Positions 25,899 to 57,383 of a stretch of DNA of 64,000 nucleotides are shown piece by piece. Each line of letters opens with the position of its first letter. Positions within the stretch are counted from its first letter, which is position 1. Origin of the DNA: Spirochaetota bacterium (GTDB lineage Bacteria > Spirochaetota > UBA4802 > JAKQUI01). The stretch is taken from assembly GCA_029562645.1 (NCBI GenBank), contig JAKQUI010000005.1, positions 7,961-71,960 on the forward strand, in the 5' to 3' direction. A model generated the notes under the pieces. The model had not been told where the DNA came from, searched no databases, and was given only the letters and a program-made list of their open reading frames with translations. The position numbers were made by a program, and so were the translations under genes.

Positions 25899-26170
25899 GA
25901 TGTGCACCACACGGTATTATTACTATTATGTGAATATATAATACTATTATATAGTTGTAGTAGTAGGCACGGCGAATATGTGGATACTTCGCTAACTACT
26001 GACGCCATCAGGCATTCCGCATATCGTCCATGTGGACACGAACGAGGCGGAGGGCGAAAACTCTCAATTTAACGCCATGGGTATCAGACAACGAAAAAAT
26101 TATCAACAATAATGCGACATAATAAACAATATACTCACACGTTATCCCCACGTCAGCGCGCGGGTGTCCG
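25899..26170. promoter_or_regulatory. candidate oriC segment / DnaA-box cluster with AT-rich DUE in the dnaA-dnaN intergenic region
   Basis: 25911-25970 is about 80% AT in a ~65% GC genome. DnaA-box-like 9-mers: TGTGGATAC (25979-25987), TGTGGACAC (26031-26039), TTATCAACA (26100-26108), TTATCCCCA (26142-26150). Each is 1-2 mismatches from TTATCCACA. Confidence 0.45.
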
Positions 26171-27508
26171 TTACAGTTTTAGTTCGATGATGAGCTCGTC
26201 GATCTCTTCTTTGAGGTTGGGATCGTCCTTTATCATCTTCTCGACATTGTTCATGGCGTTCAGGACCGTGGAATGATCGCGATCGCCGAATTCCTTGCCG
26301 ATCTCCGTGGTGGTGAGGCTGGTGAGCTTCCTGACGAGGTACATGGCAATGAATCGCGGCAAGACGATCTTGCTGTGACGGCCCTTGGCGCGCAGGTCGT
26401 CCACGGTCACGTCGTATTTCTCGGAGACCTTTTTCATGATGTCGTTGATGGTAATCGCCTTGCTCACCTCGGCGTCGAAAAGATCCTTGATGTGCGTTTT
26501 CGCGTGCTGGATGCTGATGGGCTCGTTTGAAGTCTCTGAGACGTGCCGGAGCCGGTTGAGCGCCGATTCGAGGTAGCGGATGTTCGATTTGATGCGCGTG
26601 GCGATGAAGGTGATGACCTCATCGGGCACGTGGATGCTGTCGCTCTCGGCCTTGTTGCGAAGAATGGCCTCGCGCGTTTCAAGATTTGGCTGCTGGATGT
26701 CGGTGATCAGTCCCCAGGCGAAACGCGTCTTCAGCCGGTCCTCAAGCGTGGAGAGGTCCTTCGGGGGGCGGTCGCTGGATACCACTATCTGTTTTTTGCT
26801 CTGGTGCAGGGTGTTGAAGGTGTGGAAGAATTCCTCCTGGGTCTGCTCCTTGCCCTCGAGGAACTGGATGTCGTCGATGAGCAGCAGGTCCACCTCGCGG
26901 TACTTGATCTTGAAGCTCTCGAGGGTTTTGGTGCGCAGCGAGTTGATGAAATCGTTGATGAACAGCTCGCACTGCACGTAGAGCACTTTGAGAAAGGGGC
27001 GCTCCATCATCACGGAATGGCCGATGGCCTGCATGAGGTGCGTCTTGCCCAGACCGACGCCGCCGTAAAGGAACAGCGGGTTATAGGTGTTACCCGGCGA
27101 TTTCGACACCGACACCGCGGCCGCGTGCGCGAACTGGTTGTTCGGCCCCACGACGAAATTGCTGAAGGTATACCGCGGATTGAGCATCATGGTGGACGGA
27201 TTGTTGATGGTCGACAGGGCGTCCGGAACCGGGATGCCCGTCTGCGCGGCGGGCGACGGCGTGTGGCCGTTTGCAATGACGAACTCGCAGAAATACTGCT
27301 CGCCCGTCAGCTCGCGCAACAGCTCCACGATGAGCGGCTGGTAATTGTCCGCGATGTGACGTCGCGAGACATCGTCCGGGACCGTGATGCGCACCGTCTT
27401 GTCGAGGATCGATTCAACCGACGTGTTCTGAAACCACATGTCGTACGACTGCTTGTTGATCTTTGTTTGTACGCCGGATAACACCTTGTTCCACATTTCG
27501 TGTGTCAT
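26171..27508 (-). CDS. dnaA: chromosomal replication initiator DnaA
   Basis: 445 aa. AAA+ Walker A GGVGLGKTHL. C-terminal DnaA-box-binding domain (IGKEFGDRDHSTVLNA). Confidence 0.97.
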   Translation of the reverse strand: MTHEMWNKVLSGVQTKINKQSYDMWFQNTSVESILDKTVRITVPDDVSRRHIADNYQPLIVELLRELTGEQYFCEFVIANGHTPSPAAQTGIPVPDALSTINNPSTMMLNPRYTFSNFVVGPNNQFAHAAAVSVSKSPGNTYNPLFLYGGVGLGKTHLMQAIGHSVMMERPFLKVLYVQCELFINDFINSLRTKTLESFKIKYREVDLLLIDDIQFLEGKEQTQEEFFHTFNTLHQSKKQIVVSSDRPPKDLSTLEDRLKTRFAWGLITDIQQPNLETREAILRNKAESDSIHVPDEVITFIATRIKSNIRYLESALNRLRHVSETSNEPISIQHAKTHIKDLFDAEVSKAITINDIMKKVSEKYDVTVDDLRAKGRHSKIVLPRFIAMYLVRKLTSLTTTEIGKEFGDRDHSTVLNAMNNVEKMIKDDPNLKEEIDELIIELKL

Positions 27509-27882
27509 ACCTTCCTTGATGCGTTATCAACAATTGTTAATAACTTTGTTTATAAATGGCATATATTTGAGTAGTATTCACCGTGTCATGATAGAAAACG
27601 CGCGGTCCCCAGTATTGTCTCTCGATTGGGGAACCCGAAGGATTATCCTCTGCAATTATTTTCCAAAGGGCTTTTTGGCAAGGATTTTATACTGCCGCAC
27701 AAATCATAGGCATGTTTTTTTCCCGCATGCGGATAGGGTGCGGATATCCTGTGCACAGCCGCCAGATCATTGTTGATAACAGGCGCAGAGATGTTGATAT
27801 CGTGTGGGAAGCGGTGGACAGATGGAAGATGATGCCGCACGCGATCGGCCGGATCATGCCGGCCGATCGCGAACGTTGTGCG
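27509..27882. promoter_or_regulatory. dnaA promoter region with a second DnaA-box cluster and AT-rich segment
   Basis: TTATCAACA (27524-27532) and its inverse TGTTGATAA (27771-27779), TTATCCTCT (27643-27651). AT-rich 27536-27600. Confidence 0.4.
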
Positions 27883-29520
27883 CTACAGTTGATTGAAGTT
27901 CTGCTGGTATCCGGAATTGTTCGGCTCGCGCTTCAGGGCCTCGCCGTACCAGTACTTCGCCTGCGCATTGTCCTTGAGTTTGTTGCGATAGATCCACCCG
28001 AGGTGCCCCGCCGGCCAGGCCTTGTCCCGGTGCTGATTGTGGCAGTCGGTGAGATACTTCACCGCATTCTTGAAATCGCCGACCTCTCCGTAGCAATACC
28101 CGAGGTTCGAGAGCGTGAAGTAGTAGGTGGGGTTATGCTTGAGCGCGACGTGATAGTTCTTGATCGCCTCGCGGTAGTCCTTTTTCACTAGGGAGATATA
28201 GGCGATCTCGCTCCAGGTCTGGTAGTCGTCCGATTTCACCTTCACGGCCTTGCGAAACTGCGCCATCGCCTCGTCGAGACGGTTAAGACGGCGGTAGCCG
28301 ATGCCGAGGTTGCGCAGCCCCAGGATGTAGGTCGGATACTTCTTCAGGACGACCTGGTACATCTCCAGCGCCCGTTCGAGCTGGCCCTTGCGGTCGTACA
28401 CGACCCCCAGGTTCATGTATCCGGTCTTGAACTCGGGATCGATCTCAATGGTGTTCTTGAAGTACTTCTCGGCCAGATCGAGCTTCTTCTGGTCGAGGTA
28501 GATCACCGCGAGGTTGTTGTGCGCGTCGGTGAGGAACTTGTTCTTCTCGATGGAGATCAGCAGATACTTCTCCTCCTGGGCGTCGTTATAGCCGTAGATA
28601 CGGCTGAGCAGAAAGTACGCCTCGGCGTTGTTCGGGTTGATCTCGATCGCCTTGCGCGTTTCGGCCTCGCAGAGCTTCCACTTGTTAGGGACCTTCTTGT
28701 CGTCGACCTCCTGATAGTAGCGCGCCAGGGCGATGTGCGCCTCGTCGAGGTTGGGCGACAGGTCGAGCGCCCGGCGGCTGTTCTGGTACGATTTCTCAAG
28801 CAGCGAGTCGTCGATGCGGTTCTCGTAGTTCTTGAGCTCCCAGCGGCGAAGCGAGTACGCCTTGCCCAGTCCCGAGTAGGCCAGGCTGTAGTTTTTGTCC
28901 ACGCCGATCGCCTTGTCGAACCACTTGATGGCCTCGAGATAGTTGAGCTGATAGAGCAGGTTGCTCATGCCCTTCACGTAGTATTCGTAGGCCGAGATGT
29001 TCTTGGTGAAGTTCTCGGTGATGCGGTTTTTCACGTCCGCCGTGATCTTGATGTTCGTCTGGTCGATGATCTTGAGCGCGATCTCGTCTTGCAGCTCGAA
29101 GATGTTGTCCATCACGCCGGTCGATTCCACCTGCTTGAGGATCTTGTGGCTCTCCACCTCCACGAGCTTGGCGGTGATGCGGATCCGATTGCCGTATTTC
29201 TGGAAGTTGCCCACGACGATGATGTCCGCGCCGAGGGCCTTGCCGGCCTGCTTGGCCTTCTTGTCGTCCAGGACCCCGGTCTGGCCGAGCTGCACCTCGT
29301 GGATGATCTTGTCGACGTTGGTGCGCTCCACGACGATGTAGTCGCGGACATTGCGCAGCTTGTGCGAGACCGAATCGGCGATGCCGATCTCGAGCCACTG
29401 GACAGCCTTTTCGCCCGCAAGGTTCGTGAAGGCGGACACGCCGATCACGGTCTCGGCGACAAGCGCCGCCGGGACCAGCAGGAGCAGGAGCATGATGAGC
29501 GCCGTATTTTTTCGTTGCAT
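27883..29520 (-). CDS. TPR-repeat secreted protein with the same non-TPR N-terminal domain as the 9871 gene
   Basis: Signal peptide MQRKNTALIMLLLLLVPAALVA. N-terminal domain (VSAFTNLAGEK...GADIIVVGNFQKYGNRIRITAKLVEVES) followed by about 9 TPR repeats. GGAGG lies 7 nt upstream of the ATG. Confidence 0.6.
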   Translation of the reverse strand: MQRKNTALIMLLLLLVPAALVAETVIGVSAFTNLAGEKAVQWLEIGIADSVSHKLRNVRDYIVVERTNVDKIIHEVQLGQTGVLDDKKAKQAGKALGADIIVVGNFQKYGNRIRITAKLVEVESHKILKQVESTGVMDNIFELQDEIALKIIDQTNIKITADVKNRITENFTKNISAYEYYVKGMSNLLYQLNYLEAIKWFDKAIGVDKNYSLAYSGLGKAYSLRRWELKNYENRIDDSLLEKSYQNSRRALDLSPNLDEAHIALARYYQEVDDKKVPNKWKLCEAETRKAIEINPNNAEAYFLLSRIYGYNDAQEEKYLLISIEKNKFLTDAHNNLAVIYLDQKKLDLAEKYFKNTIEIDPEFKTGYMNLGVVYDRKGQLERALEMYQVVLKKYPTYILGLRNLGIGYRRLNRLDEAMAQFRKAVKVKSDDYQTWSEIAYISLVKKDYREAIKNYHVALKHNPTYYFTLSNLGYCYGEVGDFKNAVKYLTDCHNQHRDKAWPAGHLGWIYRNKLKDNAQAKYWYGEALKREPNNSGYQQNFNQL

Positions 29521-51887: not shown

Positions 51888-53264
51888 TCACTTTTTGACT
51901 CGTCCACGAAGCGTCCGGTACTTCTTCCCCCGCAGCTTCGACAGCAGGTGCAGCAGATCGGTCTTGATGCGCGTCCAGTATTCCACATAGCCGAGCCAGG
52001 GTGTTCTTCCCAGCGACGTGCGAATCGGGAAGGTAATGAGCGCATTGATGTAATCCGGCGGACAGCCGCGATAGAACACGCCGTACTTCCGATAGCGCTC
52101 AACGCAATCGCCGTACACGAGCGTTTTCCGCTTTTTCAGCTTTTTTAGCGTCGCTTCCGGGATATCGAGGTTCTTTCCCATGATGATGGTGTATTCTCCC
52201 AGCGATTCCCAGCCGCGGTTGAGCCCGTACCCGTCAAGGAGGGCGCGCACGAAGGGCAGGCAGCCGGACGCGCAGCACTCGCCTTGATGGCAGGTGATGT
52301 TCGATGAGAGATGCGCAAGCTCCATGCTTGGCCGCGTGAAGACGTGCCGTCGCTCATTGAGGAGCTTGGCGTTCTCAACACGAACCGTTTTAAGATCGAT
52401 GGGGCCAAAGCCGCGCTCATGCAGCAGCATGAGGTGCTTCACCTCGCGCGGATCGTACCCCATGAGGTTGCAGCAGACCGTGTCCACCGACGGACCATTG
52501 TTCCCGAAGAGAATCAGGTTCATCGGATAGGGCGTGGCCTCCATGGGGCCTTGCGCCTCGCCGGCGAACACGGCATCGGTGATCACGTAGTCGGGCGGCC
52601 GCACCTGGAAGATGTCGGCGATCATCGCGTGGAGGTTCTCGTTGTGATACCGCAGGCGCGTCTCCTTGGTGATGAGGCCCATGCCGTTCTTCACCGAGAG
52701 GGTGATGTCGGCGAAGATGTTCACCTTGAGCTTCGGCAGCGAGATGTACACGTCCACGTCACGGACGATCTTCGGGTAGTCGAGCCTGATCTCAGGGCAG
52801 AAGGGATCGTCAGGCGTGATCCATTCCTTGTAAACCTCATCGAGATAGCAACACACGACGTTCTTCCGAATAGATTCGGGTAGGGCTTTTAGCGCTTTCT
52901 GCATATCGACGATATCGAACGAATAGCGCGCCGTGGCGAAGGTCTCGGCGTCGCCGATATACACGACCGAGGCGCCCCGCTCCACCAGCGCCTGCGCGAC
53001 GCCCGCAATGAAGGCGGGGTTCGTGATGATGTGCTTCACCCGCTCGGGATCGCGCACCGGAAAGACGAACGACACCTTCAGGAACACGGACTTGCCGGCG
53101 ACCGAAACCGATTCGCGGTCCATCACCGCTTTGATCTTCGCGGCGATCGCGAAGGTATCGTATCCGTCCTGCGCGATGAGGTGAACCCAATGCGGCAACC
53201 GTTTCGATGCGGCCGATGACCGGTTTCGCTTCTTCGGTTTTAATGGCGCTTTGGTTTTCATCAT
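51888..53264 (-). CDS. DUF362 domain protein
   Basis: ISLPKLKVNIFADITLSVKNGMG matches the DUF362 hallmark (i.lPklKtH...g.T.alKN..G). A basic N-terminal tail. Several Cys pairs (CHQGECCASGC). Confidence 0.5.
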   Translation of the reverse strand: MMKTKAPLKPKKRNRSSAASKRLPHWVHLIAQDGYDTFAIAAKIKAVMDRESVSVAGKSVFLKVSFVFPVRDPERVKHIITNPAFIAGVAQALVERGASVVYIGDAETFATARYSFDIVDMQKALKALPESIRKNVVCCYLDEVYKEWITPDDPFCPEIRLDYPKIVRDVDVYISLPKLKVNIFADITLSVKNGMGLITKETRLRYHNENLHAMIADIFQVRPPDYVITDAVFAGEAQGPMEATPYPMNLILFGNNGPSVDTVCCNLMGYDPREVKHLMLLHERGFGPIDLKTVRVENAKLLNERRHVFTRPSMELAHLSSNITCHQGECCASGCLPFVRALLDGYGLNRGWESLGEYTIIMGKNLDIPEATLKKLKKRKTLVYGDCVERYRKYGVFYRGCPPDYINALITFPIRTSLGRTPWLGYVEYWTRIKTDLLHLLSKLRGKKYRTLRGRVKK

Positions 53265-53450
53265 CCCTCTTAATAATCAATTGAATGATGCGCAATTGTG
53301 TACATCAACATCCACAGAACGTTCCGATGTGCACGAAACGGTTTTCGTCGCATATCGGAAGAATCGGGATTGCCAGATGCGCATACGCGTGGTACCTGTT
53401 TGATGAACCCAATGCCGGGGAAACGTTTTTGTCAACCGCAATGCGCCATC

Positions 53451-53954
53451 ATGAAAACGGCCCTCTGTGACGCCTCGTCGCTCATCATCCTGTACAAGGC
53501 CGGGCTAGTGCGCGCATTCGTCGTGCGCTATCGCGTCGTCGTCCCGGCATCGGTTTTCGAGGAACTGGTCATCAAAGGGAAAACCGGCGCGGAGCGATTC
53601 CGGGCATACTGCGCAGAGGGCAGCATCACCGTCGAGGACGGCCTGTCGTTTGCGGATGTGCAGATCCCGCTTCGCGGCGGCGAGGCCGAATGCGTGCGGC
53701 TCTACCGCGCCGGCCGGGGCGATTTCATTCTCACGGACGACGGCAAAGCGGCAGATTACTGCCGGGCGAGCGGCATTCCCTTCATCAACGCGCTGCTGGT
53801 GCCAAAGCTGCTGCTCCATGCCGGAATTCTTACAGAGGTGACGTGCGCGGACGCGATGCAGCGGGTGCGACGATTCGGACGATATGCGCGCTGGGTGGTC
53901 GACTATGCGGAGCGTGCCGGGTTGGACGAGTTGTGTGCCTTCATGACGGAGTAG
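53451..53954 (+). CDS. PIN-like (DUF3368-like) putative nucleic-acid-binding protein
   Basis: MKTALCDASSLIIL...VVPASVFEEL resembles the DUF3368 pattern (ilDtS.li.L...l..l....ViP..V..El). No upstream partner ORF was found. Confidence 0.35.
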   Translation: MKTALCDASSLIILYKAGLVRAFVVRYRVVVPASVFEELVIKGKTGAERFRAYCAEGSITVEDGLSFADVQIPLRGGEAECVRLYRAGRGDFILTDDGKAADYCRASGIPFINALLVPKLLLHAGILTEVTCADAMQRVRRFGRYARWVVDYAERAGLDELCAFMTE

Positions 53955-54161: not shown

Positions 54162-55052
54162 CTATGCGAGTAGGTGTTTCGCGAGAAAATTCGCCTCGAT
54201 GGCGACGACCTTCTCGAAGAGATCGCCCACGTAGACCTCGAAGTGACCGGCATCCAACTCGACGGATTGCGCGTTCGAAACCCGCGCGACTGTTGTGCGG
54301 ACGGCTTTCGCAGGGATGAGCGAATCGCGTTCGGCAATGATGAACAGGGCCGGGCAGGGAATTTTTTTAGCGTACCGTATCGGCCGGTACTGTACCAGGG
54401 TGAGGCAGATCCGGGCCGGACATTCATTGGTAAACGGAGCGCCCTCTGGAACGATGGCCAGGACCCCTTCCCGGCAATCGGGCGCGTTGAGGGCCCCGAA
54501 AACGCCGAGCGTCGCGTCGCCGACGATCGGAATCAGGTGCGGCCTCCGGAATGTGATCATACGAACAAGATCCCGCAGACCGTGGATGAAGCCGGCGATG
54601 ACCGAGCGCAGCGGGATCAGCGAGATGCTCGCAATGCCGTCGACGAATGGAACCTGTGACACGATCGCCCGGATTCCGGGAACCCGGGCCGCGGTCACGA
54701 TGACGTGTCCGCCGCTGAAAGAGGTCCCCCAAAGGGCCATACGTCCCCCGTCAACATTTGGGAGAGTACGCACATGCGCAATCGCGGCACGCCAGTCCTG
54801 GAGATGGCGCCGTGGGCTGATCCAGTTGCGCGGCTCCCCTTCGCTGTCGCCAAAATTTCGGTACTCGAACAGGTAAACCGCAAGCCCCTGCTGCACAAAA
54901 CGCTCCGCGAAGGCCGGGAGTCGGTAATTACGCAGACCTCCAAAACCGTGCGCCATGACGACTACCGGCGGTTTCTTTGCGGTATCGGGGAGGAAAAGCC
55001 ATCCCTCACAGCGAAGACCGCGGTTCATAAAAGGTGAATCAGTCACTATCAT
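54162..55052 (-). CDS. alpha/beta-fold hydrolase
   Basis: HGFGG oxyanion region. Nucleophile elbow GTSFSGG. About 296 aa. Confidence 0.7.
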   Translation of the reverse strand: MIVTDSPFMNRGLRCEGWLFLPDTAKKPPVVVMAHGFGGLRNYRLPAFAERFVQQGLAVYLFEYRNFGDSEGEPRNWISPRRHLQDWRAAIAHVRTLPNVDGGRMALWGTSFSGGHVIVTAARVPGIRAIVSQVPFVDGIASISLIPLRSVIAGFIHGLRDLVRMITFRRPHLIPIVGDATLGVFGALNAPDCREGVLAIVPEGAPFTNECPARICLTLVQYRPIRYAKKIPCPALFIIAERDSLIPAKAVRTTVARVSNAQSVELDAGHFEVYVGDLFEKVVAIEANFLAKHLLA

Positions 55053-55130: not shown

Positions 55131-57383
55131 CTACACGTATGTCAGCGTTTTCCCGTTGATCTTGCGGACCACGTCGCTGGTGATGTCGCTGATGCCGTTG
55201 CAGCCGGTCAGGATCATCGCCTGCTCGAGATCGCGGCGCAGGCCGTTCAGGTAGTACGACACCGCGGCCGCGCCCATGCCGACGGCCGCGATGGCGATCG
55301 GACGGCCGATGAGGACCGCGTCGGCCCCGAGCGCGAGCGCCTTGAGGATGTCCACGCCGGTGCGAAATCCGCCGTCGATGATGATCTTGATGTGTCCCTT
55401 CACCGCCGCCGCGATCTCCTCGAGCACGTCCATGGAGCCCACCATCTCGTCGAGCACGCGCCCGCCGTGGTTGGAGATCACGATACCGTGCGCGCCCACC
55501 TCGACCGCCATCACCGCGTCGCGGACGTTCATGATGCCCTTGAGAATGAACGGGTATTCGGTCATGCTGATGAGCGCCTTGAGGTCGTCGAAGCTCTTGG
55601 GGCCCACGGGTTGGTTCTTCAGCGCCATGGTCTTGAAGACCACCGCGTCGATGTCCATGCCCATCGCCACCGAGTGGACTTTTTCGGCCGCACGGAGCCG
55701 CTTGATGAGCTCGCGGTTGTCGCTGCGCGGCTTGAAGATGGGCACGCCCATCCCGTCGGCCTCGCCGATCGCCTGCAGCCCGATCTTGTACTTGTTCGGC
55801 GTGGCCCCGTCGCCCACGAAGGCGATGGTGCCCGCCTGCAGGCAGCCGTCGATCACGGCGCGGTTATAGTCGAGCTCGTCCATCGCGCCGCCCATGTTGG
55901 TCATGGTGCCGGTGATAGGCGCCGCCATGACGGGAAACGAGAGATTGATCCCGAAAAAGCTCGTCGAGGTGTCCGGCGCGGTCACGCCGTGGATAAGGCG
56001 CGTGTTGATCTTGTAGTTGCGCAGCGACTCGACATTGCGGCGGAACGAGGCGCCCGTCCCCGCGCCGCCCATGCCGGGAACACCGGAGGGGCAGTCCTTG
56101 CCGTCGCAATTCTTGCACACATAGCAGGTTTTTTTAAGCTTTTCGCGCGCGGCGATGTTGATCGTCTCCTGCGAGAGCTCGGTCGCCTCGAAGAGCTCGA
56201 TGGAAAGCACCTCCCGGCAGCGCGCGACGGCCGCCTCGGCCTCGGCGAGCGTGTTCCCCACGGCGATGATGTGCCCCGCCTTCTCCACGTTCGAGCGCGG
56301 GATGACGATCTTGTCGCCCGGCTGCACGTTCATGAAGATTTCTTCGATCCCCGGAATTTGCAGCGCCTCCTCGAGGCCCGTGATGCTCTTCACGATCCCC
56401 GGCGTGGTGATGATGGCGCGCTCGATTGACACGCGGTTCATCACCGGATCGAGGTTCCCGGGCTCCTGCCCGAGGGCGATCTCCACGGCCGCGCGCATGA
56501 GGTCCACGCCCGTGGCCAGCGGATAGGTGTATGCCGACATGAAGCCGCCCGAGAGGCGCGCCGCGAGCTCGCCGATCTTGGGACCGCATTTGGTGATCTT
56601 GATATCGCCCTTCGCAAAGCCGTGCGTGATCCCCAGCGCCCGGATGCCCTTGCGCATGGCCTCGCAGGCATTCTCCTGGATCTCCGCCGGCAGGTGCGAC
56701 GGCATGGTGTGTCCGGTCTCGACGAAGTACGGCGGGTACTCGATGATCCGGTCGGCGACGCCCGTGATGGTGATCTCGCCGTTGAAGACGACCGCGTCGA
56801 TCGAAAGCTCCGGGCCCTCCATGTATTCCTCGATGAGGAGTTCGCCGCTGGGCGAGGCGCTCTTGGCGAACTGGAAGGCGTCGGCGATTTCGTTCTTGGT
56901 GCCGATCCGCGTCACGCCGCGCGCGCCCATGTTGTCCGACGGCTTGATGACGACCGGAAATCCGAGCTTATTGCAGGCCTTCTTCGCGTCGGCGATCGAC
57001 CACACCGGGTAGAAGCGCGGGCAGAGCACCCCGTGCTCGTGGAAGCGCTTGCGCATCTTGATCTTGTTGGTCGCCGCCTCGGCGTCCTCGAACTTGATGC
57101 CGGGCAGATTGAGCGCGTTCGCCACCGCAGCGACGGTCATGGAGGCGTCGGTGCCCACGGTCAGTACGCCGTGTATGGGGGTGATGTTGTTCTGCGCCTT
57201 TGCCACGCGCACCGAGCCCTCGATGTCGCGGGTGCTCATCACGATTGGAATGTCGGCGTGCCGCATGCCGATGGCGTTCGGGTTGTAGTCGGTCACGATG
57301 ACCTGCAGGCCCATCTTCTTGGCGGTCTGGATGACCGGGTCCTGCAGGAGGCCCCCGCCGATGATCATGATCGTTTTTTTCAT
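55131..57383 (-). CDS. fusion protein: N-terminal ATP-grasp ligase domain, ferredoxin-like Cys motif, C-terminal FMN-dependent alpha-hydroxy-acid oxidase/dehydrogenase domain
   Basis: ATP-grasp over 1-400 (IIGGG...VVIKPSDNMGARGV...EEYMEGPELSIDAV). Linker CYVCKNCDGKDCP. C-terminal HAOx signatures RRNVESL, SNHGGRVLD, IDGGFRTGVDILKALALGADAVLIGRP. Confidence 0.7.
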   Translation of the reverse strand: MKKTIMIIGGGLLQDPVIQTAKKMGLQVIVTDYNPNAIGMRHADIPIVMSTRDIEGSVRVAKAQNNITPIHGVLTVGTDASMTVAAVANALNLPGIKFEDAEAATNKIKMRKRFHEHGVLCPRFYPVWSIADAKKACNKLGFPVVIKPSDNMGARGVTRIGTKNEIADAFQFAKSASPSGELLIEEYMEGPELSIDAVVFNGEITITGVADRIIEYPPYFVETGHTMPSHLPAEIQENACEAMRKGIRALGITHGFAKGDIKITKCGPKIGELAARLSGGFMSAYTYPLATGVDLMRAAVEIALGQEPGNLDPVMNRVSIERAIITTPGIVKSITGLEEALQIPGIEEIFMNVQPGDKIVIPRSNVEKAGHIIAVGNTLAEAEAAVARCREVLSIELFEATELSQETINIAAREKLKKTCYVCKNCDGKDCPSGVPGMGGAGTGASFRRNVESLRNYKINTRLIHGVTAPDTSTSFFGINLSFPVMAAPITGTMTNMGGAMDELDYNRAVIDGCLQAGTIAFVGDGATPNKYKIGLQAIGEADGMGVPIFKPRSDNRELIKRLRAAEKVHSVAMGMDIDAVVFKTMALKNQPVGPKSFDDLKALISMTEYPFILKGIMNVRDAVMAVEVGAHGIVISNHGGRVLDEMVGSMDVLEEIAAAVKGHIKIIIDGGFRTGVDILKALALGADAVLIGRPIAIAAVGMGAAAVSYYLNGLRRDLEQAMILTGCNGISDITSDVVRKINGKTLTYV

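What the first reader, a model, noticed from the sequence alone, without database searches (positions are those of the whole stretch)
55131..57383. Unusual tri-partite enzyme: ATP-grasp ligase + CxxCxxCx4CP motif + FMN alpha-hydroxy-acid oxidase domain
Residues 1-400 are a canonical ATP-grasp (carboxylate-amine/thiol ligase) domain. The C-terminal ~350 residues carry all hallmarks of the glycolate/lactate oxidase family (RRN..., SNHGGR, GADAVLIGRP). The linker holds CYVCKNCDGKDCP, one residue off the classic 4Fe-4S ferredoxin motif CxxCxxCxxxCP. Coupling an alpha-hydroxy-acid oxidation (making a 2-oxo acid) to an ATP-dependent ligation in one polypeptide suggests a dedicated small-molecule or peptide-modification pathway. 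No such fusion is described to my knowledge. The neighbouring genes (alpha/beta hydrolase, DUF362, PIN-like) may belong to it.
Basis: partly seen in the sequence, partly recalled or inferred. Interest (0 to 1): 0.6.

Follow-up and report, generated by a model that had tools for sequence, protein, structure and literature searches.

The report
ATP-grasp ligase fused to Cys-motif flavoenzyme
This is a real, widely conserved but uncharacterised two-domain enzyme of Leptospira-like spirochaetes and Nitrospinota: an ATP-dependent ligase joined to an unusual flavin dehydrogenase with a four-cysteine motif that probably holds an iron-sulfur cluster.

Summary
The 750-aa ORF (55131-57383, minus strand) is real. 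It has an L-amino-acid-ligase-type ATP-grasp half (residues 1-400) and an FMN_dh (alpha-hydroxy-acid oxidase family) half. It is not an assembly artefact. The same fusion occurs in hundreds of independent assemblies of Leptospirales, Leptospira isolates, Nitrospinota and Coatesbacteria, down to about 37% identity.

The "linker" motif is not a linker. C-x2-C-x2-C-(D/N)-G-x2-C is the N-terminal signature of a large FMN_dh subfamily that also exists as standalone ~340-aa proteins in strict anaerobes such as Clostridium botulinum and C. sporogenes. It is the most conserved stretch of the fusion. The ferredoxin-like "CP" is clade-specific.

The flavin domain keeps the catalytic Lys, Asp-His and Arg257 equivalents. 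It lacks equivalents of the family's Tyr24, Tyr129 and Arg164, so it is not a standard lactate or glycolate oxidase.

Most likely it is a bifunctional ligase/oxidoreductase whose flavin exchanges electrons through a Cys4-bound Fe-S cluster rather than with O2. The substrates are unknown. No functional study was found. The architecture is a new variant of known kinds and is moderately interesting.

The parts
55131..57383 (-). Whole gene: 750-aa ATP-grasp + Cys4-FMN_dh fusion protein. The stop codon is at 55131-55133.
   Evidence: ORF list, Pfam, full-length homologues, AF2 pLDDT 89.3.
56184..57383 (-). Residues 1-400: ATP-grasp ligase domain of the L-amino-acid-ligase (LAL) type, including the LAL_C2 subdomain (residues 325-396). 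Invariant residues are K147 (VIKP), E185/E192, K258/D260 and E272-x3-R276-x-S-G-G.
   Evidence: Pfam ATP-grasp_4 55.5 bits, LAL_C2 66.2 bits. Foldseek 3VOT TM 0.87. Invariant columns.
56133..56183 (-). Residues 401-417: short helical connector between the two halves (helix 405-416).
   Evidence: AF2 secondary structure. Matches to standalone FMN_dh proteins begin at residue ~406.
56091..56126 (-). Residues 420-431: CYVCKNCDGKDC, the C-x2-C-x2-C-(D/N)-G-x2-C motif. It is a putative Fe-S (or metal) site.
   Evidence: Present in 120/120, 87/87 and 121/121 sequences. It lies in the most conserved segment of the fusion, residues 418-445. The AF2 model shows low-confidence coil here, as expected for a cofactor loop.
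55152..56132 (-). Residues 418-744: FMN-dependent dehydrogenase (beta/alpha)8 barrel of the Cys-motif subfamily.
   Evidence: Pfam FMN_dh 227 bits. Profile against PDB: LOX 1e-93, GOX 9e-59. Foldseek mandelate oxidase TM ~0.79.
55458..55475 (-). Residues 637-642: SNHGGR, holding the catalytic His639 and the carboxylate-binding Arg642 (GOX His254/Arg257).
   Evidence: Invariant in A2. Alignment to GOX and LOX.
55356..55376 (-). Residues 670-676: DGGFRTG, the FMN phosphate-binding motif. GRP at residues 693-695 (nt 55299-55307) completes it.
   Evidence: Invariant columns. Coordinates.
54162..55052 (-). Downstream same-strand alpha/beta hydrolase (296 aa, 78-nt gap). It is a possible local accessory, not a conserved partner.
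   Evidence: Pfam Hydrolase_4, and NCBIfam UilS-like at 156.7 bits against a cutoff of 400. It is adjacent only in the window and its 99% twin L001. Nine loci of another clade carry a different, only distantly related alpha/beta hydrolase.

Best explanation
The gene encodes a bifunctional enzyme.

**N-terminal half.** It is an L-amino-acid-ligase-type ATP-grasp. It should activate a carboxylate as an acyl-phosphate and join it to an amine (or hydroxyl) nucleophile.

**C-terminal half.** It is an FMN (beta/alpha)8 dehydrogenase from a distinct branch of the (S)-2-hydroxy-acid oxidase family.
- It keeps the hydride-transfer machinery: the His639-Asp579 pair, Lys615 and Arg642.
- It has a remodelled substrate pocket.
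- It carries an N-terminal C-x2-C-x2-C-x4-C motif that most likely binds an Fe-S cluster next to the flavin.

**Proposed mechanism.** The flavin interconverts a 2-hydroxy (or 2-amino) centre and a 2-oxo centre on the ligase's substrate or product. Electrons enter or leave one at a time through the cluster to a soluble carrier rather than to O2.

**Shown:** the domain identities, intact catalytic motifs, conservation of the fusion and of the Cys motif, and its occurrence in strict anaerobes.

**Inferred:** Fe-S binding, coupling of the two reactions on one metabolite, the direction of the redox step, and the substrates, which remain unknown.
For: **Domain assignment**
- Pfam and NCBIfam hits and PDB sequence hits.
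- Foldseek: 3VOT L-amino-acid ligase TM 0.87 and mandelate oxidase TM 0.79.

**Fusion conserved across phyla**
- Fusions reach down to ~37% identity.
- 583 genome loci include Leptospirales, Leptospira ognonensis, Nitrospinota and Coatesbacteria.
- 48 of 80 metagenome loci are complete fusion ORFs of about 734-766 aa that include the FMN_dh domain, and a few more are cut by contig ends.

**Motifs**
- ATP-grasp motifs are invariant: K147, E185, E272, R276-S-G-G.
- FMN_dh K615, D579, H639, R642 and the FMN-phosphate motifs are invariant.

**Cys motif**
- It is 100% conserved in fusions and standalone members.
- It lies in the most conserved segment, at 56% against 38-39% mean pairwise identity.
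- The standalone subfamily is abundant in obligate anaerobes (Clostridium botulinum, C. sporogenes, Romboutsia, Caloramator), where an O2-dependent oxidase makes little sense.
- One member carries a Tat-type SRREFL signal.
- The motif ends 5-6 residues before the position of GOX Tyr24 / flavocytochrome b2 Tyr143. That residue is an active-site residue at the face where the b2 heme domain docks (alignment, plus established knowledge of FCB2).
Against: - No metal or cofactor data exist. Four clustered Cys could instead bind Zn.
- No conserved partner gene, riboswitch or pathway context identifies a substrate.
- No split-adjacent ATP-grasp/FMN_dh gene pair was found.
- Some lineages keep the ATP-grasp with a decayed FMN_dh-like domain, or with His->Arg at the catalytic base. 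Standalone ATP-grasp relatives also exist. The ligase can therefore work without canonical flavin chemistry.
- The relative orientation of the two domains is uncertain (pTM 0.66).
Confidence: 0.5

Rival explanations
1. The flavin half is an ordinary L-lactate/glycolate-type dehydrogenase or oxidase. The four Cys form a structural Zn (or disulfide) site with no redox role.
For: - The best PDB and NCBIfam matches are LOX, LldD and GOX.
- The catalytic His, Lys and Arg are intact.
- No Fer4 family hit was found, and the spacing is atypical for ferredoxins.
Against: - NCBIfam scores are far below the equivalog cutoffs: LldD 135.7 against 550, LOX 110 against 645.
- Tyr24, Tyr129 and Arg164 equivalents are missing.
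- The subfamily is concentrated in strict anaerobes.
- The motif is more conserved than the catalytic domains.
Confidence: 0.2
2. The FMN/Cys domain is mainly a regulatory or scaffolding module, for example a redox sensor that gates the ligase, rather than a catalyst acting on the ligase's metabolite.
For: - Some lineages have a decayed FMN_dh-like domain: no Cys motif, SNNNKY in place of SNHGGR, and no FMN-phosphate motif. They nevertheless retain an ATP-grasp 57-59% identical to the window's. Another clade has a His->Arg variant.
- Non-fused ATP-grasp relatives function in other operons.
Against: - In the window's protein and in most fusions every catalytic and FMN-binding residue is invariant.
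- The flavin domain evolves as slowly as the ligase domain.
- The same domain exists as an autonomous enzyme-like protein in thousands of anaerobes.
Confidence: 0.12
3. The two domains catalyse unrelated reactions and are fused only for co-expression. Alternatively, the gene is one part of a local operon with the alpha/beta hydrolase, DUF362 and PIN-like genes.
For: - A same-strand alpha/beta hydrolase lies 78 nt downstream.
- Serine hydrolases or MBL-fold hydrolases follow the gene in three clades.
- A DUF3368 PIN-like gene is adjacent in several Leptospirales genomes.
Against: - The fusion has been maintained across phyla for a long time.
- Neighbours differ by clade: glpX; HpcH/HpaI-like plus ATP-citrate lyase in Nitrospinota; mnmA, PilZ and rluA in Leptospira.
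- The two alpha/beta hydrolases are only 24% identical over 118 aa.
- DUF362 is near the gene in only 3 of 87 loci.
Confidence: 0.1
4. The fusion is an assembly or gene-calling artefact that joins two genes.
For: None was found.
Against: - The same uninterrupted ORF appears in hundreds of independent assemblies from many projects, including isolate genomes and megabase contigs.
- The junction helix and the Cys segment are conserved.
Confidence: 0.01

Closest known systems
L-amino-acid ligases of the ATP-grasp superfamily (BL00235 PDB 3VOT, RizA 4WD3, BacD/YwfE 3VMM)
   Same: - Same three-subdomain ATP-grasp fold with the LAL_C2 subdomain.
- Foldseek TM 0.87 to 3VOT.
- Conserved ATP/Mg and acyl-phosphate residues.
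   Different: - Only 17-24% identity.
- Fused to a redox domain.
- The substrates are unknown and need not be two amino acids.
- The closest non-fused relatives sit in a spirochaete spiro-SPASM / cytidylyltransferase / amidase operon rather than in dipeptide-antibiotic clusters.
FMN-dependent (S)-2-hydroxy-acid oxidases/dehydrogenases (glycolate oxidase, L-lactate oxidase, LldD, mandelate dehydrogenase, Hmo, MftD)
   Same: - PF01070 (beta/alpha)8 FMN barrel.
- Lys230, Asp157, His254 and Arg257 equivalents, and the FMN-phosphate motifs.
   Different: - An N-terminal Cys4 motif that is absent from every solved member.
- Tyr24, Tyr129 and Arg164 equivalents are absent.
- An invariant K-P insert motif.
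- Scores far below all NCBIfam equivalog cutoffs.
- The subfamily is typical of strict anaerobes.
Flavocytochrome b2 (yeast L-lactate:cytochrome c oxidoreductase)
   Same: The same FMN_dh barrel carries an N-terminal one-electron carrier module that takes electrons from the flavin. This is the proposed role of the Cys4 site, and it is in the same N-terminal position (PDB 1FCB among the hits; mechanism from established knowledge).
   Different: The carrier there is a ~100-residue heme b5 domain. Here it is a 12-residue Cys motif. FCB2 has no ligase domain.
Fe-S flavoenzymes built on FMN barrels (trimethylamine dehydrogenase / 2,4-dienoyl-CoA reductase class, glutamate synthase, DPD, DHODH-1B)
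   Same: They share the design logic. An FMN barrel does two-electron chemistry, and a nearby Fe-S cluster relays single electrons (review PMC8097209).
   Different: The barrel families, cluster motifs and cluster positions are all unrelated. That review lists no member of the 2-hydroxy-acid oxidase family.
VanH-VanA pair (2-oxo-acid reductase plus ATP-grasp depsipeptide ligase)
   Same: It pairs an enzyme interconverting 2-oxo and 2-hydroxy acids with an ATP-grasp ligase that uses the hydroxy acid (established knowledge; an analogy only).
   Different: The two are separate proteins. VanH is an NAD-dependent D-specific dehydrogenase of another fold. There is no evidence that the present enzyme makes depsipeptides.

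Membership tests
ATP-grasp superfamily, L-amino-acid-ligase (LAL) branch | Sequence-profile membership (ATP-grasp_4 / LAL_C2 above the gathering score) | tested here: met
   ATP-grasp_4 scores 55.5 bits against a cutoff of 27, and LAL_C2 scores 66.2 against 29.4.
ATP-grasp superfamily, L-amino-acid-ligase (LAL) branch | ATP-grasp fold with the LAL C-terminal subdomain | tested here: met
   The AF2 model against 3VOT gives TM 0.87 and rmsd 3.0. It also matches 4DIM, RizA and BacD.
ATP-grasp superfamily, L-amino-acid-ligase (LAL) branch | Conserved nucleotide/Mg2+/acyl-phosphate residues (Lys on the central strand, hinge Glu, Glu-x3-Arg) | tested here: met
   K147, E185/E192, K258/D260, E272 and R276-x-S-G-G are invariant in 18 diverse fusions. 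Assigning roles to these residues rests on general ATP-grasp knowledge.
ATP-grasp superfamily, L-amino-acid-ligase (LAL) branch | ATP-dependent formation of an alpha-dipeptide from two L-amino acids | not testable with these tools
   This needs enzyme assays.
FMN-dependent (S)-2-hydroxy-acid oxidase/dehydrogenase family (PF01070) | Profile membership and the (beta/alpha)8 FMN barrel | tested here: met
   FMN_dh scores 227 bits against a cutoff of 24.9. The profile against LOX gives 1e-93. Foldseek against mandelate oxidase gives TM ~0.79.
FMN-dependent (S)-2-hydroxy-acid oxidase/dehydrogenase family (PF01070) | Catalytic His-Asp pair, flavin N1 Lys and carboxylate Arg (GOX His254, Asp157, Lys230, Arg257) | tested here: met
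   H639, D579, K615 and R642 are invariant.
FMN-dependent (S)-2-hydroxy-acid oxidase/dehydrogenase family (PF01070) | Substrate-binding Tyr24, Tyr129 and Arg164 (GOX numbering) | tested here: not met
   - The Tyr24 position is occupied by the invariant P436/G437.
- The Tyr129 position is variable (Pro548 in the window).
- No Arg aligns with Arg164, and the region is not alignable.

Two of the three assignments rest on ungapped extension of the HMM alignment.
Specific enzymes LldD / L-lactate oxidase / MftD / IDI-2 (NCBIfam equivalogs) | Score at or above the curated equivalog cutoff | tested here: not met
   - LldD: 135.7 against 550.
- LOX: 110.2 against 645.5.
- MftD: 113.8 against 470.85.
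- IDI-2: 45.9 against 281.3.

All.
Ferredoxin-type [4Fe-4S] domain (CxxCxxCxxxCP) | Canonical spacing with a conserved Pro after the fourth Cys, and Fer4 profile membership | tested here: not met
   - The spacing is x2, x2, x4.
- Pro follows the fourth Cys in 99/120 close fusions but in only 1/121 standalone members.
- No Fer4 family appears among the Pfam hits.
Fe-S flavoenzyme (any class) | Bound iron-sulfur cluster in electron-transfer distance of the flavin | not testable with these tools
   Only indirect evidence is available. The four Cys are invariant, and the distribution is in anaerobes. The motif also lies next to the active-site N-terminal segment.

The most novel reading that the evidence does not exclude
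The C-x2-C-x2-C-x4-C motif binds a [4Fe-4S] (or [3Fe-4S]) cluster beside the FMN. This would define an unrecognised Fe-S branch of the 2-hydroxy-acid oxidase superfamily that lets anaerobes run this chemistry without O2. In Leptospirales and Nitrospinota the module is hard-wired to an ATP-grasp ligase to make or remodel a still-unknown conserved metabolite or cell-envelope/glycan substituent, for example an N-(2-oxoacyl) or N-(2-hydroxyacyl) group. The likely orthologue in pathogenic Leptospira interrogans is LA2659, which was reported induced on macrophage contact.
Probability: 0.35. Interest if true: 0.65.

Novelty: new variant of a known kind. Interest (0 to 1): 0.45.

Why it matters
- **A missing class of Fe-S flavoenzyme.** If the Cys4 site is an Fe-S cluster, thousands of proteins now auto-annotated "L-lactate oxidase" or "alpha-hydroxy-acid oxidizing protein" in strict anaerobes are mislabelled. 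These include Clostridium botulinum and C. sporogenes. They would represent a class of Fe-S flavoenzyme absent from current reviews.
- **An unidentified conserved metabolite.** The fusion with an ATP-grasp ligase is kept across Leptospira, including probably pathogenic L. interrogans, and the marine nitrite oxidiser lineage Nitrospinota. This points to a conserved two-step reaction on a metabolite that nobody has identified.
- **Experimentally tractable.** A single soluble protein can be tested for FMN, iron and substrates.

Tried and rejected
- **Assembly artefact:** rejected by recurrence in independent assemblies.
- **Operon with alpha/beta hydrolase, DUF362 and PIN-like genes:** I clustered neighbours across 87 loci and found no family shared across clades.
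- **Split-adjacent gene pairs:** seven standalone ~400-aa ATP-grasp loci and five standalone Cys-FMN_dh contexts show no partner within the flanks.
- **Riboswitch or leader RNA upstream:** no Rfam match in the window at E<=1 or in eight related loci.
- **Promoter and terminator scan:** counts were at shuffle expectation and uninformative.
- **Single or multiple origin of the fusion:** an NJ tree of the C-domains groups the sampled standalone proteins together among the fusions. It has no outgroup or support values, so I drew no conclusion.
- **AFDB fold search:** the library was unavailable.
- **Foldseek hits to pyruvate carboxylase:** these only reflect co-linear ATP-grasp plus TIM barrel, with rmsd ~25 A. 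They are not homology of the architecture.
- **Literature:** six searches found no characterisation of the fusion, the Cys-motif subfamily or the spiro-SPASM cluster. The only mention is LA2659 in a microarray table.
- **Partners of the non-fused relatives:** none occurs in the window.
Full report
**1. Observation**

The window holds a single 750-aa ORF at 55131-57383 on the minus strand.
- Pfam places ATP-grasp_4, ATP-grasp_3 and LAL_C2 on residues ~1-396 and FMN_dh on ~440-740. FMN_dh scores 227 bits against a cutoff of 24.9.
- NCBIfam gives only sub-threshold matches to LldD, lactate oxidase, MftD and various ATP-grasp ligases.
- An AlphaFold2 model built on 18 diverse homologues has mean pLDDT 89.3 and pTM 0.66. 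The lowest confidence is in the Cys-motif coil, residues ~421-445.
- Foldseek matches the N-terminal half to L-amino-acid ligases (3VOT TM 0.87, 4DIM, RizA, BacD). It matches the C-terminal half to mandelate oxidase (TM ~0.79).

**2. The fusion is not an artefact and is widespread**
- A word-indexed search returned 1666 homologues with E<=1e-10. The best 120 are all 728-771-aa full-length fusions at 70-99% identity. Most come from Spirochaetota MAGs and are named "alpha-hydroxy-acid oxidizing protein" or "ATP-grasp domain-containing protein".
- The exhaustive search of 50%-identity representatives found about 25 further fusion clusters, down to 36-38% identity.
- A scan of one genome per species found 583 loci. 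The best 80 include uncultured Leptospirales, Leptospira (including the isolate L. ognonensis at 52%), Nitrospinota at ~54% and a Coatesbacteria MAG.
- 48 of 80 metagenome loci are again complete single ORFs of about 734-766 aa that include the FMN_dh domain, and a few more are cut by contig ends.
[quoted passage not shown] It was up 2.8-3.6-fold in some macrophage co-culture conditions (PMC2964297). I infer LA2659 is an orthologue from that annotation only.

**3. The Cys motif is not a linker**

The representative search also returned standalone FMN_dh proteins of ~340 aa. Their match to the query begins at residue ~406, so it includes the motif. Their sequences carry it near the N-terminus, for example CRVCPVCDGRSCPGGVPGMGG and CKVCKVCNGVACAGEVPGMGG.

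A profile of five such proteins retrieved more than 5,600 relatives. The best hits are from Clostridium botulinum, C. sporogenes, C. carboxidivorans, Romboutsia, Peptacetobacter hiranonis and Caloramator. They are annotated generically as alpha-hydroxy-acid oxidizing protein or L-lactate oxidase.

Counting C..C..C....C gives the following:

| Sample | Sequences with the motif |
|---|---|
| Close fusions | 120/120 |
| Genome-locus copies | 87/87 |
| Distant FMN_dh fusions | 20/21 |
| Standalone proteins | 121/121 |

- The residue after the fourth Cys is Pro in 99/120 close fusions but in only 1/121 standalone proteins. The resemblance to the ferredoxin "CP" is therefore clade-specific.
- No Fer4 family hits.
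- Residues 418-445 are the most conserved stretch of the fusion. Mean pairwise identity is 56%, against 38% for the ATP-grasp half and 39% for the rest of the flavin domain.
- One standalone member has a Tat-type SRREFL signal peptide.
- No solved structure carries the motif. All PDB alignments start after it.

**4. Active sites**

In 18 diverse fusions the ATP-grasp residues are invariant: K147, E185/E192, K258/D260, E272 and R276-x-S-G-G. This is consistent with an active ligase of the PurK/LAL type.

In the flavin half, the GOX equivalents fare as follows:

| GOX residue | Equivalent here | Status |
|---|---|---|
| Lys230 | K615 | invariant |
| Asp157 | D579 | invariant |
| His254 | H639 | invariant |
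| Arg257 | R642 | invariant |
| Tyr24 | P436/G437 | absent |
| Tyr129 | variable (Pro548 in the window) | absent |
| Arg164 | none | not alignable |

- The FMN-phosphate motifs DGGxRxG and GRP are also invariant.
- The Tyr129 position lies next to an invariant K551-P552 that is specific to the subfamily.
- Two of the three "absent" assignments rest on ungapped extension of the HMM alignment.

The domain therefore keeps the hydride-transfer core and one carboxylate ligand but has a remodelled substrate pocket. Filing it as a lactate or glycolate oxidase is not justified. The NCBIfam equivalog scores agree.

The motif ends five to six residues upstream of the Tyr24 position. In flavocytochrome b2 that residue (Tyr143) lies at the interface with the N-terminal heme domain that accepts electrons from FMN (established knowledge). 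A cluster bound by the motif would therefore occupy an analogous position.

**5. Genomic context**

I called ORFs in 87 loci and clustered them. No neighbour is shared across clades.
- **Largest Leptospirales clade:** glpX is the divergent upstream neighbour (19 loci). LexA and a DUF3368 PIN-like gene with a CHAT/TPR gene lie downstream.
- **Second clade:** the gene is followed by a 150-aa protein and a 259-aa alpha/beta hydrolase (9 loci).
- **The window and its 99% twin:** the gene is followed by a different alpha/beta hydrolase, only 24% identical over 118 aa.
- **Three loci:** an MBL-fold hydrolase follows.
- **True Leptospira:** the order is GGDEF, aspartyl-protease-like, mnmA, the fusion, PilZ, rluA and a methylase, with 3-12-nt gaps.
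- **Nitrospinota:** the fusion's stop abuts or overlaps an HpcH/HpaI-like protein (13 loci), which is usually followed by the ATP-citrate lyase beta and alpha subunits.
- **DUF362:** it is near the gene in only 3 loci.
- **Standalone Cys-FMN_dh genes in clostridia:** these are likewise solitary among housekeeping genes.

No riboswitch was found, and the promoter/terminator scan was at background.

**6. Relatives of the ligase half**

The closest non-fused relatives are ~400-aa standalone ATP-grasps and a large class of ~540-aa proteins with an unannotated 140-aa tail, at 42-63% identity.
- The 540-aa class sits in a translationally coupled operon. The order is spiro-SPASM radical-SAM protein (TIGR04321, 529 bits against a cutoff of 250), GT2, cytidylyltransferase (CTP_transf_3), a 590-aa PseG-like/methyltransferase protein, the ATP-grasp, an Amidase_3 MurNAc-L-Ala amidase, and GerMN.
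- The cytidylyltransferase-to-amidase core of this arrangement recurs in nine loci of different base composition. The spiro-SPASM and GT2 genes were confirmed only in L087, and GerMN was detected in six. One locus has flaA nearby.
- Three of the seven ~400-aa standalone loci keep the cytidylyltransferase upstream.
- None of these partners is in the window.

This suggests, but does not show, that this ATP-grasp clade acylates an amine on a cell-envelope or glycan precursor.

**7. Variants that constrain the model**

Metagenome loci revealed two variant clades.
- One clade (six loci) keeps the Cys motif and the FMN motifs but has Arg in place of the catalytic His (SNRGGR) and FFNP in place of KPR.
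- A second clade (four loci plus P0129) has an ATP-grasp 57-59% identical to the window's. Its FMN_dh-like domain has decayed: no Cys motif, SNNNKY, and no FMN-phosphate motif.
- Seven standalone ATP-grasp loci have no FMN_dh within 5 kb, so no split-adjacent form was found.

The ligase is thus the indispensable core, and the redox module has been modified or lost in some lineages. This keeps a regulatory or scaffolding reading alive. However, the window's protein has every catalytic residue.

**8. Interpretation**

The best-supported reading (confidence ~0.5) is a bifunctional enzyme.
- A LAL-type ATP-grasp forms an amide or ester bond through an acyl-phosphate.
- An FMN domain of a Cys4-bearing branch of the 2-hydroxy-acid oxidase family interconverts a 2-hydroxy (or 2-amino) centre and a 2-oxo centre on the same metabolite.
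- The flavin exchanges electrons through a probable Fe-S cluster instead of with O2.

Known design parallels:
- Flavocytochrome b2, where the same barrel carries an N-terminal one-electron carrier.
- FMN-barrel Fe-S flavoenzymes such as TMADH, GltS, DPD and DHODH-1B. A 2021 review of that class does not mention any 2-hydroxy-acid oxidase relative.
- The VanH-VanA logic of pairing an oxo/hydroxy-acid oxidoreductase with an ATP-grasp ligase.

Rival readings:
- The Cys form a Zn-binding structural site on an otherwise ordinary dehydrogenase (0.2).
- The redox domain is a regulatory or scaffold module (0.12).
- The domains are independent, or the gene belongs to a local operon (0.1).
- The fusion is an artefact (~0).

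**9. Novelty and score**

Both domain families are well known, and the fusion is visible, generically annotated, in hundreds of public genomes. I found no functional study of the fusion or of the Cys-motif subfamily.

I rate it a new variant of known kinds, with interest 0.45. It is a solid, testable, uncharacterised enzyme architecture. The more interesting part is the Cys-motif flavoenzyme subfamily, which reaches well beyond this window. It is not, however, a categorically new system, and its substrate remains unknown.

Noticed in passing
L087:1098-9152; also L088, L158, L162, L166, L167, L170: The closest non-fused ATP-grasp relatives (~540 aa with an unannotated ~140-aa C-terminal tail) lie in a recurring, translationally coupled spirochaete operon. 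In L087 the order is spiro-SPASM radical-SAM (TIGR04321), GT2, cytidylyltransferase, PseG-like/methyltransferase (590 aa), ATP-grasp, Amidase_3, GerMN. The other loci share the cytidylyltransferase-to-amidase core. flaA is nearby on the contig that encodes P0153. No literature was found on this cluster.
   Followed up: partly
L058:8001-15317 (and 12 other Nitrospinota loci, e.g. L062, L067, L071, L077): In Nitrospinota the fusion gene's stop abuts or overlaps the start of a 263-aa HpcH/HpaI-like aldolase/lyase. In most of these loci that gene is followed by the ATP-citrate lyase beta and alpha subunits. This is a possible link to 2-oxo-acid or rTCA metabolism.
   Followed up: partly
L115, L126, L140, L142, L145, L154 (metagenome loci): This clade of full-length fusions keeps the Cys motif and the FMN-binding motifs. 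It has Arg instead of the catalytic His (SNRGGR) and FFNP instead of KPR. That implies altered flavin chemistry.
   Followed up: partly
L117, L119, L122, L169 and protein P0129: These AT-rich lineages (one from a human gut metagenome) keep the ATP-grasp half at 57-59% identity. It is fused to a decayed FMN_dh-like domain with no Cys motif, no catalytic His (SNNNKY) and no FMN-phosphate motif, so the domain is an apparent pseudo-enzyme.
   Followed up: partly
protein P0226 (407 aa): This standalone Cys-motif FMN_dh carries an N-terminal twin-arginine (SRREFL) signal. That suggests some members are exported in a cofactor-loaded state.
   Followed up: no
window 53298-53954 (+); L002:12193-15640, L003:10251-13669, L005:10270-13723: A DUF3368 (PIN-like) gene lies convergent to the fusion in several Leptospirales genomes. 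There it is paired with a ~970-aa TPR/CHAT protein, possibly a toxin or defence module. The window's 218-aa ORF gave no Pfam hit in my scan, although the gene call in the 99% twin (L001) lists PF11848.
   Followed up: partly
proteins P0212, P0213, P0236 (~800-830 aa): These proteins join two ATP-grasp modules (a LAL-type and a PylC-like N-terminal type). This is another fusion architecture of the same ligase clade.
   Followed up: no
window 54162-55052 (-); L014:11038-11817; L004:10329-11288: Three different hydrolases follow the fusion on the same strand in three clades. Two are only distantly related alpha/beta hydrolases and one is MBL-fold. This is a weak hint of a hydrolytic follow-up step.
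   Followed up: partly
window 26001-28000: A local drop in G+C to 0.54 stands against 0.58-0.68 in the flanking ~25 kb on each side.
   Followed up: no
window 51888-53264 (-): This is a 458-aa DUF362 protein with a weak match to the Npun_F2552 family. It lies near the fusion in only 3 of 87 loci, and its function is unknown.
   Followed up: partly
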